Part shown: piece after piece, positions 44,164 through 53,296 of the stretch | Layout: each line of letters opens with the position of its first letter | Numbering within the stretch: the first letter of the stretch is position 1 | From: a virus | Direction: 5' to 3' (one strand) | IMG/VR virus record: IMGVR_UViG_3300030090_003378 | Coordinates: 1 to 64,000 of that record | DNA length: 64,000 nucleotides | Notes under the pieces: model-generated | The model's database searches: none | Told to the model about the DNA's origin: nothing | Seen by the model: only the letters and a program-made list of their open reading frames with translations | Position numbers and translations under genes: made by a program

Positions 44164-44587
44164 ATAATAGAGGTTAGATTACCCTGCAAAGATATTTTTC
44201 CCTTCTAAAACATAACATTCGCGGGTTAGAGTATAACGGTGGGTAAAAGGCATGTTCTAATAACTTTTGAAGGTCTATTTTGCGCCATAAGGCCATTTAG
44301 TAACTAACTTTTGTTTTTATCTCAATAAAAAATTGATTCCGCAAAGTGGAACCATATGGGTGTAAGTATACGATAATAAATAATAAAAACCTCGCCGATA
44401 ATGGAGATGACGACGATGACGCATAAATACAACCATATGGTATGCTTTGCATTACCTTAAGATATTAAACTAGAAGAGTATAATATCATTCAAGGGGGAA
44501 AGACAAGGAGGAAATATGCTAACCCCCTTTCTCCGTTAAGCCCGAAGTTGTTTAGTCCTTATTACTGGATAAACCCCTTGAATCTAT

Positions 44588-45773
44588 TTAATCTTCTTCT
44601 TCATTTCTCATTTGGTCGCGTAGAACAATATAGTTCCTGAAGTTTTGAGAGCAGTATTCTGCGTTATCATCCCACTCTTCTTGTGCGCCTGTTGTTAAAT
44701 CATACTTTCCTAATACTTGATTACAACATACACAGTTATGCCATATAACCCTAATACGTGGATAATTTGCATCACCCACATAATATTGGTCTTCACGGCT
44801 AACTTTAACCTCAACTTCTTCATTACACTTCTTACAGTATAATTTTTTCCATAACATACCTAACGATTTACTCATTCTTCTTCCTCCCTACCTTGACCGA
44901 CTATATCTTGAGCAACATCATAAGGCATATGTTGTCCTTTGATTGCAAAAGCAGCAACTACTGTGCGATTTACCTCAAGGCTACTTCTAGTCATAGCAAT
45001 TAAGCCATTAAGATAGTCAAGAATTGCCTCATTATCCCAATCACTCTCAATAACGGTAATATGATTAGGGAAGTGAGTCATCAATTTCATCAAAACACAT
45101 CTAACTTCTTCCCGTATTACTGTGTTTAGTATAGCATCTAATTTTTCTTCCATTCAAATCACCATATATTCTTGATATGTCCAAATAGGAATACCTGTTT
45201 CTTCATCTATCGGGCCTTCTAATTCAGTTTTCAATTTCAATTGTTTCATTTCATCACCACTGTCATACACTTATTGTAATAATGACTATAATTTCTCCAT
45301 TCAGGTAGAGGTTTATTACAACATGGACAAATATCTCCTGTAATTACTCTATCTTTGCTCATTCTTCTTCACCTCGGAATAAACTGTTGCTTAGTATTCC
45401 TCGCTTAAGTTCGTTAAGTTCTACTTTTTGGTCTTCAAGCATCTTAAGGCATAGGTCACTTAACAAGCATCTGACTGTTTCAACCCTAAGCCATTCTCCT
45501 GCGTGGACTTTCTTATCAGCACCATCTAATAAACTTTCAATATATTCTGCGTATACCATTATTTCACTCTCCGGTTTATGACTCATCTAGATTTCTACGT
45601 AGAGTTTCAGCAGTTACTATGTCAAGGGCATCCTTAATCATATCCTGTGCTTCTGAAGTATTATCCGCTTGGACTCTTACTTCAGCAAGCCAAACACCCT
45701 TAGCGTTCTGCTTCATTTTCATTACAACATCTTTCATCACTATCACATTATTGTCTTTATCTTCATTAGGCAT
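44588..45773 (-). CDS. Cluster of small leftward ORFs (44588-44875 Zn-ribbon; 44872-45153; 45359-45586; 45576-45773)
   Basis: Coupled ORFs, several ending in EEE/EED; CxxC pairs in the first. Confidence 0.5.
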
Positions 45774-45907
45774 CTTATCACCTATGCTAATATGTAACCT
45801 AGTACAAGTTAAGGTGTGTGCAAAGCCACACCATATGGAACGTAACTTTGTGGCTTCCTTACACCTACCGACCTTAACTTACTAATGCCCAATAGGAGGA
45901 CGGGCTA

Positions 45908-46486
45908 ATGAAAGAAATGAAATGGACAGCAGAAAAGATAGCAACTTTTCTTGCACCCTTCGTTGCTTGGCTAAAGGCCAACAAGAAGAAGCAAGAGAAA
46001 TGGGATATGGGTTTGAAGTGGGCCTATGAGGACGTTGAAAAATACGTTCGACAAATGCCTACTTGTCAAACCGACGATGATGTGAAGCAGATACAGCGGA
46101 AGTTGAGAACAGCAGGGCAAACCACCGGCATTGAATCAACAGGTTATCCGGTTGTGAAAGCAAATTCAAAATGGGTTCCACCGGCTCACGCGAAGCCCGC
46201 ATGGGATTTGATTGAGAAAGGACTCAAGCGTGAATTGAGGCCTCAGAAGAAAGGATTTGAAGCACTTCTGACACATCGCAACACCCATGCCAAGAAAGAC
46301 AAGGATGGAAAAATCATCAAGAAAGGTGAAAGATTCTTCCAAAGTCGTGATGATATTCGCGACACTCGATTGGCAACATTCATGGGTAGACTCAAGGCTG
46401 ACCTAATCTCAGGAGATTGGGATGGCACAATTGAAGGACTCAAGAAGATTGCAGACCTACCTGACGGGGTGAATTTGGATGATTGA
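45908..46486 (+). CDS. GxWDG-family paralog 1
   Basis: 192 aa, C-terminal LISGDWDGT. Confidence 0.65.
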   Translation: MKEMKWTAEKIATFLAPFVAWLKANKKKQEKWDMGLKWAYEDVEKYVRQMPTCQTDDDVKQIQRKLRTAGQTTGIESTGYPVVKANSKWVPPAHAKPAWDLIEKGLKRELRPQKKGFEALLTHRNTHAKKDKDGKIIKKGERFFQSRDDIRDTRLATFMGRLKADLISGDWDGTIEGLKKIADLPDGVNLDD

Positions 46487-46512
46487 TGACAACGAAGATT
46501 GATTAAAATGAC

Positions 46513-46542
46513 GGGTGGGGGGTTGGTTTGAACCCCCTGCCC
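46513..46542 (+). terminator. GC-rich hairpin after paralog 1
   Basis: gggtggggggtt-ggtttg-aaccccctgccc. Confidence 0.5.
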
Positions 46543-46732
46543 TGAATTTAGGGTGTGTATTTTATAGATTGGTCATTTGCTACAAAGTTCTCATTCCCTA
46601 TCGAACTAACACAGAATTAGAAATTCTGCGTTATTAAAATATTCACACCATATGGTAAGCACTTTGTGGCGAACCCTAACAGTGTAATCGGCCACCTAGT
46701 AATGCTTCGTAATGAAGTAGGAGAGATATGAA

Positions 46733-47311
46733 ATGTCAGACGACAAAGATATGAGCATGACAGATGAACAATGGGCAAAGGTAATTGCGCCAGTAGAGCA
46801 GCATTACAAAGACCACCAAAAGGAACTGAAAGCCAACAAGGAACACGGTGAAGATTGGGGAGAGTCACTAACCATTATTCGTAGTCAGATTAAGAGAGGA
46901 AATAAGAACGCAAGCAACCGTGTAAAATACTACACGTTAATCAAAGATGAAGGTCGTGACCTTCCTCATTGGCCTATCAAGAAGGGACAGCAATCTAAAT
47001 TGCCACAAGCCCTTCAAGATAGTTTGAATGTTATGGGCGATGAACTCGCAGAAGCCTACACCGCTTTTTGGGAGGCTAACCCAATCGTTCAAGCAACAAG
47101 TATCATCAGCGACCGTAACAAGGAATTGGGCGGTTCGCAATATAATGATGGTGCAGAGTTTGCGGCAAGTAGAGTATTGGCTATGCGACAGCGCTTCATT
47201 AAGCACTTCAATACTGGCCGATGGGATGGTGAATATAATGCTGAAGGCATGACAATTTCACCACCGCCTCAAGATGATGATGCAGGAGATGATTCTTCTG
47301 ATGAGTCTTGA
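46733..47311 (+). CDS. GxWDG-family paralog 2
   Basis: 192 aa, C-terminal FNTGRWDGE. Confidence 0.65.
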   Translation: MSDDKDMSMTDEQWAKVIAPVEQHYKDHQKELKANKEHGEDWGESLTIIRSQIKRGNKNASNRVKYYTLIKDEGRDLPHWPIKKGQQSKLPQALQDSLNVMGDELAEAYTAFWEANPIVQATSIISDRNKELGGSQYNDGAEFAASRVLAMRQRFIKHFNTGRWDGEYNAEGMTISPPPQDDDAGDDSSDES

Positions 47312-47608
47312 GCAAATTTTCCTTGATGAAGAGGAAGATTAAATCTGTTCTCAAGAACAGTAGGAACTATCTGATTCAGTGATGAAGATAGGGCTAACCG
47401 CACGGCCCCTTAATAATGTGCGGTAACACAATCCCCTTTAATATAATAATTAGTATAGGGGCGGCTGTTTCAGGATAGCGTCGACATAATAAATCCTAAC
47501 CTTTAATATTATTTTGATTTTTTAATATTAAGGTATGGCGCAAAGCACCTTACCATATGGAACAAAACTTTGTTATTTCCCCATGACTACAATAGCCCAT
47601 CTACTAAT

Positions 47609-48135
47609 GTTCGGGGCGTGAAAGAGAGGCATCTCTTAAGCAACCTGAATGGGATAGTGGCTGAAATCGAAAGACCGCAGATTGAGAAGCGGGAACAGCA
47701 TACACATTGAGATAGACTCGTGATAGTAATATCGTGGTAGAGTCAAAAGCAATTAACGAATGGTTGTAATACCCTTCGCTGACATAATAATCAAAAGTCA
47801 TTTTGCGGGCATGAAAAAAGGCAACTGTATAACCAGCAGTCAGATGATAACAATGGGAGGTACAGCCCATTGGTGTAGTTAGAGTAAGTGTCATTCGGAA
47901 AAACGCGTTTACTAATCAATAGTAATAAACGAACGACTCACACTGAAATTTGTAGTGTAAACCTTAATCGGGGTTATCCTACCTATCCACCTTTCACATT
48001 CCTCTAGGGGATGACGGAAGTTAGGCAATAAGAAACCCGACAAACAATATACGTTGTCGAATCCGGATAGTAACGGTGAAGTTTCTCGCTTAGTATTGTT
48101 GCAAACCTTCCCGAATCCTCTTGAGGTGATTTTTT
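47609..48135 (+). ncRNA. Putative large structured non-coding RNA (~520 nt)
   Basis: No credible ORF; more than 12 nested stems; begins at the same offset from an ACCATATGG element as the neighbouring genes' leaders; ends with a hairpin and T-run. Confidence 0.6.
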
Positions 48136-48369
48136 TAATATCAGGGTTCTGTTTTTCAAAGAAAAGAACCATATGGTTCAATTAATTTGACCGGAGGTGT
48201 ATAAAGTGCGTGACGACGATACTGATGAAGATGCTTAAATAAGCATCTAGACCTGAACAAGTCGTTAAACTGTTCACGCCCTTTCACACCATATGGTAAG
48301 AAACTTTGTTTCATTACCTTACACGTATTCGTTATATGTTAGTGATGCCCTAAAAGGGTAGGAGATAAT

Positions 48370-48972
48370 ATGATGAGACATATAGATGATGAAAGATGGA
48401 ATGAGATGTGGTCAGAAAAGATTTTGACTTCACAGCAAGTTCTTTTGAATGAAGGTGATAAGGATATGGCAAAGATATTCGGTTGGATGCACGAAATGGG
48501 AAGTCGGAGAGGAAGTGAAGGAATCCGACATTCTCTCATTAAGTCAATGCGAGATATGGTTAGGCATAATGCCCGATATGGAAACGAAGTTTGTTACACA
48601 TTGGGTGGTCGGTATAGACTACCTTATCAAGTGCGTGAAGTAATTTGGCATGCCGCCGATGTTTTGGCTACACAGGTTATACAAGAAAGACATAATCAAT
48701 CGCAATACCAAGCATTGATTAACTTTAGAACAAGAAAACAATGGATTCACGATAAGAGAGGTAATGACTACAAAATTAAGCAATCTTATGAAGATGACGC
48801 TTATGCCGCAGGAAATCGTGCCGCAAAGAAATTGATGCGAACCTTAACCCATTGGTTTAAGATTGGTATTTGGGATGGCACAAAGGATATGCTTGACCAG
48901 TTTTTAGCAGAACCACAATATGCTATCGAGGCATTGAATCAGATACAAGGACGTGAGGTGGGAGATTGTTAA
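48370..48972 (+). CDS. GxWDG-family paralog 3
   Basis: 200 aa, C-terminal FKIGIWDGT. Confidence 0.65.
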   Translation: MMRHIDDERWNEMWSEKILTSQQVLLNEGDKDMAKIFGWMHEMGSRRGSEGIRHSLIKSMRDMVRHNARYGNEVCYTLGGRYRLPYQVREVIWHAADVLATQVIQERHNQSQYQALINFRTRKQWIHDKRGNDYKIKQSYEDDAYAAGNRAAKKLMRTLTHWFKIGIWDGTKDMLDQFLAEPQYAIEALNQIQGREVGDC

Positions 48973-49091
48973 ATATTCCATCCAACCTTGACAAAAACGG
49001 TAATATCGTAAAATTGTATAATAGGTATGAACATTCAGTGTTCACCGTATACAATGACGATATGGAAGAATGACTAATCATCATTTCAATT

Positions 49092-49122
49092 CAGCAGTAG
49101 GGGTCTGCTTTATCAAAACCCC
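49092..49122 (+). other. H-type pseudoknot motif, copy 1
   Basis: AGCAG/CTGCT stem with loop GGGGT pairing to a downstream ACCCC. Confidence 0.55.
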
Positions 49123-49649
49123 GACCTTTTTAATCTTAAGGTAATATTCCCCTCAAAGAGTCTATTACCATATGGTTCATTTTATATGACCGGAGGTGAT
49201 TGCATAGTTCTTGACGAAGACCCAGCAGACGACGACGCGTAATTCAATTACGCAGAGTCCTGAGTAAGACTTCAAACTGCTCGCCTTCAAACTATTCCAC
49301 ACCATATGGTAATATATCCATTTAAAAAGATATTTTTTGAAATAAAAAAATAACGCCAAATCGAGCGATGGGCCTTATAAGTGGATTCGCCCACCCTGTA
49401 TTGCGTTACCCGAGATGCGACAATAAGCATACCGATGGCTAATACTTCTCAAGTATTTGTTATCCTTTTGTCTAAGTTACACCAATTACTCTTATTATAT
49501 GTGACTAATCAGAATAATTAATATATTTATTATTGTTTACACTTTTAGCCAAAAGGACGTGCAAGTTATAGAACTATGCATGAACTAATGAACTACTAAC
49601 TATCAATGTTTTTCTTAATAATTTTTTTCTTGTTCATTTTGTCCGAGAT

Positions 49650-52256: not shown

Positions 52257-53039
52257 TTGACAGCAGTTTGCGGTCTGCTTGAACAAAACCGCAATTTTAA
52301 ATTAGAGATGATTATTATGTGGAGAAAGAAAAAAGATTTTAATGAGTTCTTAAGTATTGTAAAAGATATGCCATTCCTTCATGCAGGTAGAACACATAGA
52401 GGTTATAGAAGGTGGAATCATAGGACTCGAAGTTACGATGGTCCTGCATATGAACCTTTAAATGTAGAAACATTAATGAATTATGTTAATACTCTTGAAG
52501 ATTCGTATAAGACTTCATATCAGGTGAATGCAGAAGGTTATAATTATGACACTATTCCCACTTTAGAGGAATATAAAATAACTTGCCTAACCCAATGGAT
52601 TAGAACAAGAAACTACAATGCAACAAAAGAATTTAGAGAAACAAGAAAAACAACAGAATATTTTAAAAGGTTGGAGAATTATGAGAAGAGATGAAGATAG
52701 TGATGAAGGTGCTGATGAATGATTAAGTTAATTAAAGATTTATGGTTATTTATCAGACACGTTTTATGGCAAGCATGGAAGACACATAGACAAATTATGA
52801 AAAGTCAGCGAGCGATAAAGAAAATGGAAGATAAAGATGGTGTGTGCAATACATTTTTACTTTTCTTAGAAGAAGCAATTGCACATAACGTACACGAGGA
52901 AGAAATCAAATGGATGATTGGAACATTCCTTGATTGTTCTGATGATAAAGTTAGAGCAGAGGAATCTTGGGAAGATGTTATATCTTATGTAAAGAAGTAT
53001 AACGTTAACCCATTAGATTTAGATTACAAGTCGGGTTAG
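52257..53039 (+). CDS. Two hypothetical ORFs (52257-52694, true start probably ~52317; 52719-53039)
   Basis: ORF track; coding-like composition. Confidence 0.45.
52261..52294 (+). other. H-type pseudoknot motif, copy 2
   Basis: AGCAG/CTGCT stem with loop TTGCGGT pairing to ACCGCAA. Confidence 0.55.
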
Positions 53040-53111
53040 TCAAGTGGTCAAAGACGGAAGGCTTAAGACCTTCTCCAAAATGGTTCGCAGGTTCAAATCC
53101 TGCACCCGACA
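53030..53111 (+). tRNA. tRNA-Leu (anticodon TAA)
   Basis: Acceptor GTCGGGT/ACCCGAC, anticodon arm GAAGG-CTTAAGA-CCTTC, long variable arm, T arm GCAGG-TTCAAAT-CCTGC; CCA not encoded. Confidence 0.92.
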
Positions 53112-53203
53112 CTTATATTATTGAGATTAGTATACAAATTGTCATGCTTCTCTCCCTCTCAATAATATATTTCCTAAGCAAGAATAAAAACTGCTTAAAT
53201 TAT

Positions 53204-53277
53204 GGGTCATTGGCGCAGTTAGGTAGCGCACCGGGCTTTTAACCCGATGGTCAGGGGTTCAAATCCCCTATGACCCT
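53204..53277 (+). tRNA. tRNA-Lys (anticodon TTT)
   Basis: Acceptor GGGTCAT/ATGACCC, D arm GCGC/GCGC, anticodon loop CTTTTAA, T arm AGGGG-TTCAAAT-CCCCT. Confidence 0.92.
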
Positions 53278-53296
53278 CTTATTCAAAGGTGATAAA

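What the first reader, a model, noticed from the sequence alone, without database searches (positions are those of the whole stretch)
47609..48135. Unannotated ~520-nt highly structured RNA occupying a 'gene slot' in the control region
Seen: a dense set of nested stems, with GTAA/GAAA-type loops in some. They include TTCGGG/CCTGAA enclosing AAGAGA-GGCA-TCTCTT; GCTG/CAGC enclosing TC-GAAA-GA and CCGC/GCGG; GACTC/GAGTC enclosing GATA-GTAA-TATC; CGAA..GGT/ACC..TTCG; ACTG/CAGT; CAATGGG/CCCATTG; and CGTTTA/TAAACG. There is a long-range pairing ATTCGG (47893) with CCGAAT (48111). CAATA/TATTG and AGAAAC/GTTTCT enclose CGACAA/TTGTCG and CCG/CGG, and a terminal CCTC-TT-GAGG is followed by a T-run. It follows the same ACCATATGG...(+50)TACTAATG element as the three flanking paralogous genes. 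I see no RNase P, SRP, tmRNA or group II domain V hallmarks. Inference: a large viral ncRNA comparable in size to ROOL/GOLLD-type RNAs, possibly a new class and possibly a partner of the GxWDG proteins.
Basis: partly seen in the sequence, partly recalled or inferred. Interest (0 to 1): 0.82.

Follow-up and report, generated by a model that had tools for sequence, protein, structure and literature searches.

The report
Enlarged stand-alone manA-type RNA, archaeal virus
The flagged stretch is a real gene for an intricately folded, protein-free RNA in an ocean virus of archaea. It is an enlarged, free-standing relative of the cyanophage "manA" RNA rather than a wholly new class, and marine RNA data hold it in many studies.

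Summary
Window 47602-48136 (+) is a self-contained transcription unit with no conserved ORF. It has a palindromic operator, a TATA-like box, an initiator box, a folded RNA and an oligo-T stop.

I found 12 distinct homologues in marine viral and metagenome contigs. On their model-fitted alignment, 60 base pairs in 15 helices are 94.6% paired, against 40-48% when partners are slid. 54 pairs show changes on both sides. Two helices that were never in the fitting model also covary.

Contigs from four marine metatranscriptome studies cover 47622-47991 only.

The virus fits a group B magrovirus, a virus of Marine Group II archaea.

The RNA is not a wholly new class. Rfam's manA model (RF01745) does not reach it. 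But my model of this family places its best hit exactly on bona fide manA RNAs in 7 of 7 cyanophage-type loci. Helix order and the conserved end motifs also agree. The central domain is expanded to about 177 nt, against about 75 nt in the manA consensus.

Unlike manA, this RNA is a stand-alone gene, and some relatives carry it inverted. That argues for action in trans.

Function is unproven. Self-assembly like manA cages is the leading guess.

This scan met the same RNA before in other magrovirus genomes.

The parts
47541..47572 (.). Palindromic element CAAAG-N7-CCATATGG-N7-CTTTG. It is the operator or cassette joint shared by all units of this region.
   Evidence: 9 copies within 44352-49309 against 0.88 expected. 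The same element precedes every homologous RNA gene.
47573..47580 (+). TATA-like box (TTATTTCC here; ACCTTAYA in most units), about 27 nt upstream of the initiator box.
   Evidence: Read directly. The spacing fits an archaeal promoter. This is inference.
47602..47609 (+). Initiator-like box TACTAATG. The likely transcription start is near 47607.
   Evidence: the box sits 50-52 nt after the palindrome in four units; the RNA contig of the next gene starts at 48345, inside its TAGTGATG box. That is one contig, so a weak hint.
47610..47649 (+). P1, a variable 5' hairpin (TTCGGG/CCTGAA with an inner hairpin). It corresponds to the manA 5' hairpin.
   Evidence: A 5' hairpin is present in all homologues, but its sequence and length vary.
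47652..47657 (+). P2 5' strand, GGATAG. It pairs with 47983-47988 and corresponds to manA GGGaG.
   Evidence: helix 1 is 100% paired, and 4 of 5 pairs show double changes. One search gives the manA consensus.
47658..47700 (+). GUGGCUGAAA motif, then P3 (GCTG 47660-47663 / CAGC 47696-47699) enclosing TC-GAAA-GA and P3a (CCGC/GCGG, loop AGAUUGAGAA).
   Evidence: helices 2-3. The motif matches manA GUGaCUGAAUAA.
47701..47877 (+). Central domain closed by P4 (47701-47705 / 47873-47877) and P4a (47706-47708 / 47846-47848). It holds P5, P5a, P6, P7, P8, P9 and P10, and is an expanded counterpart of the manA three-hairpin domain.
   Evidence: P4a was not in the fitting model, yet it is 100% paired with three covarying pairs.
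47715..47744 (+). P5 (GACTC/GAGTC). Its loop carries an inserted GATA-GTAA-TATC hairpin and GUGGUA (47734-47739), like the manA GUGGUG loop.
   Evidence: helix 6.
47749..47806 (+). P5a (GCAA 47749-47752 / TTGC 47803-47806) enclosing P6 (47757-47778) and P7 (47780-47800, loop AUAAUAAUCAAAA).
   Evidence: helices 7-10. P5a was not in the fitting model and is 95.7% paired. The P7 loop is near-invariant in 11 of 12 members.
47809..47822 (+). P8, a small hairpin (GCG/CGC type).
   Evidence: helix 11: 100% paired, 3 of 3 pairs covary.
47824..47840 (+). P9 (ACTG/CAGT) with loop UAUAACCAG. ACCA at 47832-47835 is complementary to UGGU at 47735-47738, and the loop resembles the manA uaACCA loop.
   Evidence: helix 12.
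47851..47872 (+). P10 (CAATGGG/CCCATTG).
   Evidence: helix 13: 5 of 5 pairs covary.
47882..47951 (+). P11 (AGTGT 47887-47891 / ACACT 47940-47944), flanked by AGUA and GAAA (loop-E-like). It has a variable inner hairpin CGTTTA/TAAACG (47906-47931).
   Evidence: helix 14. The loop-E reading is inference from the motif.
47952..47982 (+). P12 (GTAG/CTAC) with an inner hairpin. It corresponds to the last hairpin of manA.
   Evidence: helix 15.
47983..47994 (+). P2 3' strand CTATCC plus the ACCUUU tail (manA: CuCCCaCcuu). RNA contigs of two studies stop at 47990/47991.
47995..48129 (+). Variable 3' domain. It is a long hairpin closed by GGGGAT (48007-48012) / ATCCTC (48115-48120). It is absent from manA, ranges from 17 to about 140 nt in relatives, and sits elsewhere in L012.
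   Evidence: It is not covered by the RNA contigs laid.
48130..48136 (+). T7 run, the likely archaeal oligo-T terminator of the unit.
   Evidence: All homologues end in a T-run before the next palindrome.

Best explanation
Window 47602-48136 (+) is an independent gene for a structured non-coding RNA in a magrovirus, a virus of Marine Group II archaea.

Its fold has about 16 helices. A 5' hairpin is followed by a long-range helix (P2) that closes a junction of four arms.

The RNA is a distant, enlarged relative of the manA RNA motif (RF01745) of cyanophages. The outer shell and its conserved strings are shared. The central domain has grown from three hairpins to eight helices, and a variable 3' domain has been added.

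It has its own promoter and terminator, and some relatives carry it inverted between the same neighbours. It therefore acts in trans, not as a leader of a neighbouring gene.

**Shown here**
- The gene, the fold, the plus strand, its presence in RNA libraries, and the kinship to manA.

**Inferred**
- Like manA RNAs in vitro, it probably joins with copies of itself through loop-loop contacts to build an RNA-only particle or scaffold during infection. The window copy keeps the complementary UGGU and ACCA loops.
For: **Real RNA gene**
- 12 homologues lie between CCATATGG palindromes and end in T-runs.
- Covariation: 94.6% of cells paired against 40-48% slid; 54 of 60 pairs with double changes against 10-20; covariation score 0.773 against 0.15 or less; 0 of 500 shuffles reach the observed values.
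- P4a and P5a were found after fitting, were not in the model, and are 100% and 95.7% paired.
- G.U cells outnumber A.C cells 65 to 12, which favours the plus strand.
- No ORF is conserved in strand, frame or position.

**Presence in RNA libraries**
- 20 metatranscriptome runs from 13 studies hold about a fifth of the sampled words.
- Contigs of 4 studies cover only 47622-47991. In run X1 the contig depth is 1545 for the RNA, against 70 and 10 for the flanking genes.

**Independent unit**
- The cassette is inverted relative to the same neighbours in L037, L020 and L116.

**Kinship to manA**
- The manA consensus has the same order of helices and shares the strings GGGaGUGaCUGAAUAA and CuCCCaCcuu.
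- My model R1 puts its best hit on the manA RNA in 7 of 7 loci, at 11.8-25.2 bits. Rfam confirms manA at six of those seven sites, at 174-197 bits.

**manA self-assembly**
- manA RNAs form RNA-only cages through kissing loops (preprint 10.64898/2026.07.01.735769).

**Virus identity**
Against: - Rfam's manA model gives no hit at E<=10 on three members and no candidate in the whole genome.
- R1 hits on manA are weak: 11.8-25.2 bits with roughly calibrated E-values.
- Six of the seven test loci were picked with a 16-mer that resembles R1's own 5' motif.
- A4, the alignment used for pair counts, was fitted to most of the structure.
- Single-sequence folding is not better than shuffles (z -1.0).
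- Contigs cannot show strand, ends or level, and DNA carry-over in RNA libraries was not controlled.
- Self-assembly is untested. The UGGU/ACCA complementarity is only 4 bp, and members with UUAGCG loops lack it.
- I could not show that the sampled Thermoplasmatota genomes include the host order.
Confidence: 0.8

Rival explanations
1. It is a protein-binding scaffold or decoy RNA. It is abundant and trans-acting, and its repeated loops (UUAGCG in P1, P5 and P9; ACCGA in P6 and P12a) are docking sites for a viral protein such as the flanking paralogues, or for a host protein that it sequesters.
For: - The same loop motifs recur two or three times per RNA in most members.
- The gene usually lies next to a pB-family gene.
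- The contig depth is high in one RNA library.
- This reading is compatible with manA kinship, since the cellular role of manA is unknown.
Against: - No RNA-binding fold was recognised in pB.
- The adjacency is biased, because the loci were fetched through pB.
- L084, found by a DNA pattern, shows no pB-family gene within 3.5 kb by BLAST.
- The window, L012 and L018 lack the UUAGCG loops altogether.
Confidence: 0.3
2. It is a ribozyme or self-processing RNA. The conserved junctions form an active site, and the break between the core and the 3' domain at 47990/47991 is a cleavage site.
For: - RNA contigs of two studies stop at 47990/47991.
- L012 diverges from the window at the same point.
- The RNA is large and has many conserved unpaired nucleotides.
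Against: - No known ribozyme family matches.
- Contig ends at a point where strains differ are expected from assembly graphs.
- A T-stretch (ACCUUUU) follows P2 in most members, so simple termination explains the end.
- manA RNAs are not known to be catalytic.
Confidence: 0.08
3. It is a cis-acting leader or riboswitch for the downstream gene (48370-48972), as manA was first proposed to be.
For: - manA RNAs lie in 5' UTRs in cyanophages and gamma-proteobacteria (PMC2864571).
- The downstream gene is on the same strand in the window.
Against: - A T7 run and two further palindrome-promoter elements (48169, 48289) separate the RNA from the next gene.
- The RNA cassette is inverted relative to both neighbours in L037, L020 and L116.
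- RNA contigs do not run on into the next gene.
Confidence: 0.04
4. It is not an RNA gene. It is either a decayed fourth copy of the GxWDG paralogues, or two small minus-strand genes (47604-47894, 96 aa; 47912-48181, 89 aa).
For: - The slot is about as long as a paralogue gene.
- Two minus-strand ORFs nearly tile it.
- There is one weak PHROG hit, E 0.0075.
Against: - There is no similarity to the paralogues in any frame.
- Open frames differ in strand, frame and place among the 12 homologues.
- Protein-level identity of the minus ORFs to the closest homologue L012 is only 37% over 62 aa of the first ORF (a 20-aa and a 25-aa piece reach 60-65%), in separate pieces, although the DNA matches strongly (E 2.7e-46).
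- Base-pair covariation is strong.
Confidence: 0.02

Closest known systems
manA RNA motif (Rfam RF01745; Weinberg et al. 2010, PMC2864571; cage structures in preprint 10.64898/2026.07.01.735769)
   Same: - The order of elements is the same: 5' hairpin; long-range helix GGGaG/CuCCC (window GGAUAG/CUAUCC, L005 GGGAG/CUCCC); GUGaCUGAAUAA string; a hairpin; a central helix holding several hairpins; a long hairpin; a last hairpin; the tail aCcuu.
- The window keeps a GUGGUA loop and a UAACCAG loop in the same order as the GUGGUG and uaACCA loops of manA.
- My family model finds manA as its best hit in 7 of 7 loci.
- Both occur in marine viruses.
   Different: - Rfam's model does not score this RNA.
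- The core is about 385 nt against 192.
- The central domain has 8 helices in about 177 nt, against 3 hairpins in about 75 nt of the manA consensus.
- New conserved loops appear: GUAAUAAUCAAAG, AACAAACG and, in most members, UUAGCG and ACCGA.
- A 3' domain of 17-140 nt is added.
- It is a stand-alone, invertible gene with its own promoter, not a 5' UTR element.
- It sits in a virus of archaea, not of cyanobacteria.
ROOL, GOLLD and OLE (large ornate RNAs; Kretsch et al. 2025, PMC12286853)
   Same: They are large, intricately folded, often phage-borne RNAs of unknown role. The three form RNA-only homo-oligomers (abstract seen).
   Different: There is no sequence or model similarity: no Rfam hit at E<=10. 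This RNA is smaller. It is not next to the tRNA genes, which lie 5 kb away at 53030-53278.
PeSL-type promoter cassettes of T4-type phages
   Same: The RNA occupies one self-contained promoter-to-terminator unit among small accessory genes. Relatives have flipped the unit.
   Different: This describes the setting of the gene, not the RNA. The joint here is an ACCATATGG palindrome in an archaeal virus.

Membership tests
manA RNA (Rfam RF01745) | Scores at or above Rfam's gathering threshold (55.2 bits) with the family covariance model | tested here: not met
   There is no manA hit even at E<=10 on window 47300-48400, L003 6330-6880 or L037 690-1230. There are 0 candidates in the whole 94-kb genome. 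True manA scores 174-197 bits.
manA RNA (Rfam RF01745) | 5' hairpin, then a 5-nt strand GGGaG paired with CuCCC just before the 3' tail aCcuu | tested here: met
   P2 is 100% paired, and 4 of 5 pairs show double changes. L005 reads GGGAG...CUCCCACCUUUU, and the window reads GGAUAG...CUAUCCACCUUU.
manA RNA (Rfam RF01745) | Conserved string GUGaCUGAAUAA followed by a hairpin and a short return strand | tested here: met
   The window has AGUGGCUGAAAUCG, L037 has GGUGAUUGAAUAAUC and L116 has GGUGACUGAAAAAG, each followed by P3a, with P3 closing.
manA RNA (Rfam RF01745) | Central helix enclosing exactly three hairpins with loops GUGGUG, GAAA and uaACCA | tested here: not met
   A central helix (P4) exists, but it encloses P4a, P5, P5a, P6, P7, P8, P9 and P10 in about 177 nt. 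Only the window, L012 and L018 keep UGGU-type and AACC-type loops; the other members have UUAGCG loops.
manA RNA (Rfam RF01745) | Detectable homology by an independent model (reciprocal search) | tested here: met
   With filters off, R1's best hit falls on the manA RNA, on the right strand, over the full model, in L296, L324, L364, L318, L303, L309 and L341 at 11.8-25.2 bits. Caveat: six of the loci were chosen with a 16-mer that resembles R1's 5' motif.
manA RNA (Rfam RF01745) | Located in the 5' UTR of a gene (putative cis-regulator) | tested here: not met
   It has its own promoter and T-run. Two further promoter elements lie before the next gene. The unit is inverted in three relatives.
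manA RNA (Rfam RF01745) | Forms RNA-only oligomers through kissing loops | not testable with these tools
   This is known for manA from the preprint read. Here I see only a 4-bp UGGU/ACCA complementarity between the P5 and P9 loops of the window copy.
ROOL / GOLLD / OLE / HEARO / IMES, RNase P, SRP, tmRNA, group I and II introns (Rfam 15) | Match to the family covariance model | tested here: not met
   The gathering scan of the whole window finds only two tRNAs. Scans at E<=10 of three members give only chance snoRNA, miRNA and lncRNA rows. ARAGORN finds no tmRNA.

The most novel reading that the evidence does not exclude
Magroviruses make, from a dedicated and probably strongly transcribed gene, an enlarged manA-type RNA that self-assembles in infected archaeal cells into an RNA-only particle. 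The added helices and conserved loops would supply new interfaces or cargo sites. That would make manA-type RNAs a virus-borne, trans-acting assembly system shared by viruses of bacteria and archaea, rather than riboswitches.
Probability: 0.25. Interest if true: 0.85.

Novelty: new variant of a known kind. Interest (0 to 1): 0.62.

Why it matters
manA has been an orphan "riboswitch candidate" since 2010. A 2026 preprint now shows that it builds RNA-only cages in vitro, but its role in cells is unknown.

A free-standing, invertible copy with its own promoter, held in marine RNA libraries of many studies, argues that this RNA family works in trans and not by switching a neighbouring gene. The copy sits in viruses of Marine Group II archaea, among the most abundant ocean microbes.

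The finding also extends the family across host domains. It supplies a natural series of enlarged variants, with 12 sequences and a covariation-backed fold, for structural work. I know of no other large structured RNA described from an archaeal virus; this rests on my own knowledge and on the papers searched.

Tried and rejected
**Searches that found nothing**
- Phage GenBank collection, near and distant DNA searches: no match.
- Protein search of viral contigs with pC alone: nothing.
- Loose DNA patterns in viral and genome contigs gave mostly chance hits. Only L084 and L116 were new members.

**Tool problems**
- One filters-off search over 16 loci failed internally and was repeated on 6 loci.
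- mafft-qinsi was not usable.

**Looking for a host homologue**
- The signature pattern was not found in 401 Thermoplasmatota genomes. R1 found nothing in 151 plus 40 genomes.
- I could not confirm that these samples include Poseidoniales. The stricter filters also lose weak matches.
- R1 over the whole P-SSM2 genome with the tool's prefilter found nothing, although the full model does hit there.

**Ideas tested and dropped**
- Targets of the P7 loop in the viral genome: 5 sites with up to 2 mismatches against 5.5 expected.
- Loop-loop covariation between P3a and P7, and between P5 and P6: not consistent across members.
- pB protein: no Pfam or PHROG family. The AlphaFold2 model is helical, with no Foldseek PDB match at E<=0.001.
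- RNA identity is not higher than that of the neighbouring proteins, so I make no claim of exceptional conservation.
- A replication-primer RNA at the strand-switch region was considered. Nothing supports it beyond position.

**Parts not covered by the RNA contigs laid**
- 47330-47621 and 47992-48346. This proves nothing about their expression.

Full report
**What is there**

Window 47540-48140 holds no plus-strand ORF longer than 46 aa. It lies between genes of a diverged paralogue family at 45908-46486, 46733-47311 and 48370-48972.

The palindrome CCATATGG occurs nine times, all within 44352-49309, where chance expects 0.88. For four units, this one included, a TA(C/G)T(A/G)ATG box follows 50-52 nt downstream. 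The stretch ends in a T7 run at 48130-48136.

No Rfam family matches, either at gathering scores or at E<=10. Folding of the single sequence is no better than shuffles, with z -1.0 on the plus strand and -0.95 on the minus strand.

**The virus**

The record is a 94,082-base IMG/VR virus. It has a portal, an SU10-type capsid protein and a prohead protease. It also has a ribonucleotide reductase and an ATP-dependent DNA ligase in the replication arm. It carries two tRNA genes.

Two ligases with one in the structural module, RNR and two tRNAs are the published marks of group B magroviruses. These are viruses assigned to Marine Group II archaea (Philosof et al. 2017, PMC5434244).

The promoter reads well as archaeal. 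A TATA-like ACCTTAYA box (TTATTTCC here) lies about 27 nt before the box. The neighbouring genes carry AGGAG after the box. One RNA contig of the next gene begins inside its box, at 48345. I therefore place the start of this RNA near 47607. This is inference.

**Homologues**

The paralogue pB has 44 relatives in marine metagenomes. An alignment of them (A1) fetched 3 viral and 35 metagenome loci.

nhmmer with the flagged stretch, followed by profile iterations and two DNA patterns, gave 11 distinct homologues. A covariance model added a twelfth, L014. Every copy sits behind the same palindrome and promoter and ends in a T-run.

There is one copy per genome. Some relatives that carry a pB gene show no copy in the DNA held.

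In L037, L020 and L116 the whole unit is inverted between the same neighbours. It is therefore an independent unit and not a UTR.

**Not coding**

Open frames differ in strand, frame and place among the 12 copies. The window's two minus-strand ORFs (96 and 89 aa) are poorly conserved at the protein level and break into pieces even against the closest relative. The three paralogues find nothing in the stretch in any frame.

**The fold**

I read the helices from anchored segments. I then wrote them onto a MAFFT alignment of eight compact members (A3) and built model R1. Last, I aligned all 12 members to it (A4).

- On A4 with the stored structure, 53 pairs are 94.2% paired against 41-49% for slid partners. 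48 pairs show changes on both sides, against 8-19.
- A blind scan of A4 for stacked covarying columns recovered the helices and found two more, P4a and P5a.
- With these added, 60 pairs in 15 helices are 94.6% paired against 40-48% slid. 54 pairs show double changes against 10-20. The covariation score is 0.773 against 0.15 or less, and no shuffle out of 500 reaches the observed values.
- P4a and P5a were not in the model the alignment was fitted to. They are nonetheless 100% and 95.7% paired with covariation. This is the part of the evidence that is free of fitting bias.
- G.U cells outnumber A.C cells 65 to 12, so the plus strand is the folded one.

P1 and the inner P11 hairpin recur in homologues by eye only and were not counted.

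The 3' domain (47995-48129) is a long hairpin whose closing helix changes in step among relatives. Examples are GGGGAG/CUCCCC, GGAGAG/CUCUCC, GCCGAG/CUCGGC and GGUAGAG/CUCUACC. Its size ranges from 17 to about 140 nt. In L012 it lies upstream of the promoter, joined to the 3' region of the pB gene.

**RNA libraries**

Twenty marine metatranscriptome runs from 13 studies hold about a fifth of the sampled words of 47300-48400. Contigs were laid from four studies:

| Run | Region covered |
|---|---|
| X1 | 47651-47991 |
| X2 | 47622-47972 |
| X5 | 47624-47990 |
| X7 | 47628-47868 |

In X1 the depth is 1545 for this contig, against 70 and 10 for contigs of the flanking genes.

Contigs show presence only. 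They do not show strand, ends or level, and carry-over DNA was not controlled. The stop at 47990/47991 in two studies coincides with the ACCUUU tail after P2 and with the point where L012 diverges. It may mark termination, processing or merely a strain branch point.

**What it is**

Notes of earlier agents of this scan, on other magrovirus genomes, described what is plainly the same RNA. One wording was "three UUAGCG-capped hairpins", another a "multi-helix ncRNA in a cassette slot". They filed it as an enlarged relative of manA. I tested that claim.

*Against membership.* Rfam's manA model gives nothing at E<=10 on three members, and no candidate in the whole genome.

*For kinship.*
- The manA consensus, printed from phage P-SSM2, has the same order of parts. 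These are a 5' hairpin, GGGaG paired with CuCCC, GUGaCUGAAUAA, a hairpin, a central helix with hairpins, a long hairpin, a last hairpin and the tail aCcuu.
- Member L005 reads GGGAG ... CCUCCCACCUUUU. The window reads GGAUAG, AGUGGCUGAAAUCG and CUAUCCACCUUU.
- The window also keeps a GUGGUA loop (P5) and a UAACCAG loop (P9), in the order of the GUGGUG and uaACCA loops of manA.
- With filters off, R1 puts its best hit exactly on the manA RNA in P-SSM2, at 14.8 bits. It does the same in six further viral loci at 11.8-25.2 bits. Rfam confirms those six as manA at 174-197 bits.
- The six loci were chosen with a 16-mer close to R1's own 5' motif. This inflates the result somewhat. The hits nevertheless span the whole RNA on the correct strand.

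*Verdict.* This is a distant, enlarged, free-standing manA-type RNA. It fails strict membership on the model score, the three-hairpin centre and the 5' UTR position. It shares the outer architecture.

**How it likely works**

It has its own promoter and terminator and can be inverted, so it acts in trans.

A 2026 preprint shows that manA RNAs under 200 nt assemble into decamers and a 60-mer cage through the kissing loops L5-L7' and L8-L9' (10.64898/2026.07.01.735769). The complementary loop pairs in the manA consensus are GUGGUG with uaACCA and UaCUguA with acAguA. That reading of the consensus is my own.

The window copy retains the first pair, UGGU at 47735-47738 and ACCA at 47832-47835. Self-assembly into an RNA particle or scaffold is therefore my leading mechanism. 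I put it at about 0.3.

A protein-binding scaffold or decoy is about as likely. A ribozyme, a cis leader and a coding reading are unlikely.

**Limits**

- There are twelve sequences, and the alignment was fitted to the model.
- E-values from the model are roughly calibrated.
- The RNA data are contigs only.
- No confirmed sample of host genomes was searched.

Noticed in passing
window 47312-47505; L012 5646-5830: The stretch right after the pB stop codon is conserved with L012 (nhmmer E 9e-27). It shows hairpins with compensating changes: CCGCAC/GTGCGG against GGGAC/GTCCC, and CCCC.../...GGGG. A motif GA(G/A)GAAGATT(A/G)AA follows the stop codon of pB-family genes in several loci. It may be a second structured element or a 3' UTR signal. 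The four RNA runs laid do not cover it.
   Followed up: partly
L012 5824-5956 against window 47991-48121: In L012 the 3' domain of the RNA lies upstream of the RNA's own promoter, fused to the element after the pB gene. The L012 core ends instead in a short hairpin with a TTTCTCGC loop. The junctions share ATCCTACC. This could be a recombination at a microhomology or a chimeric assembly.
   Followed up: partly
window 44360-44432, 48177-48288, 49176-49301: Between each of the three closely paired palindromes lies a tiny ORF ending in an acidic tail...NGDDDDDA*, VRDDDTDEDA* (behind GGAGGTG) and ...VLDEDPADDDA*. They look like a family of acidic micropeptide genes, each in its own cassette.
   Followed up: partly
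window 45831-48347 and homologous loci: The promoter layout is repeated in every unit. It runs: palindrome with CAAAG/CTTTG arms, then ACCTTAYA about 10 nt later, then TA(C/G)T(A/G)ATG about 24 nt further. The layout fits an archaeal TATA box plus initiator with an upstream operator. The binding protein is unknown.
   Followed up: partly
loci L037, L020, L116 against L003, L007: The RNA cassette sits between the same F0 and F1 neighbours but in the opposite orientation. This agrees with earlier notes of this scan that magrovirus cassettes are flipped at the palindrome.
   Followed up: partly
L318 3764-3834; L364 2112-2160; L303 2608-2659: In the cyanophage-type contigs used as manA controls, manA lies about 50 nt from a tRNA gene in one case. 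In two cases it lies within about 400 nt of a glutamine riboswitch aptamer.
   Followed up: no
window 47882-47888 and 47945-47951: AGUA on the 5' side of P11 and GAA(A) on its 3' side are conserved in most members. Together they look like a loop-E or sarcin-ricin type module extending P11. I judged this from the motif alone.
   Followed up: no
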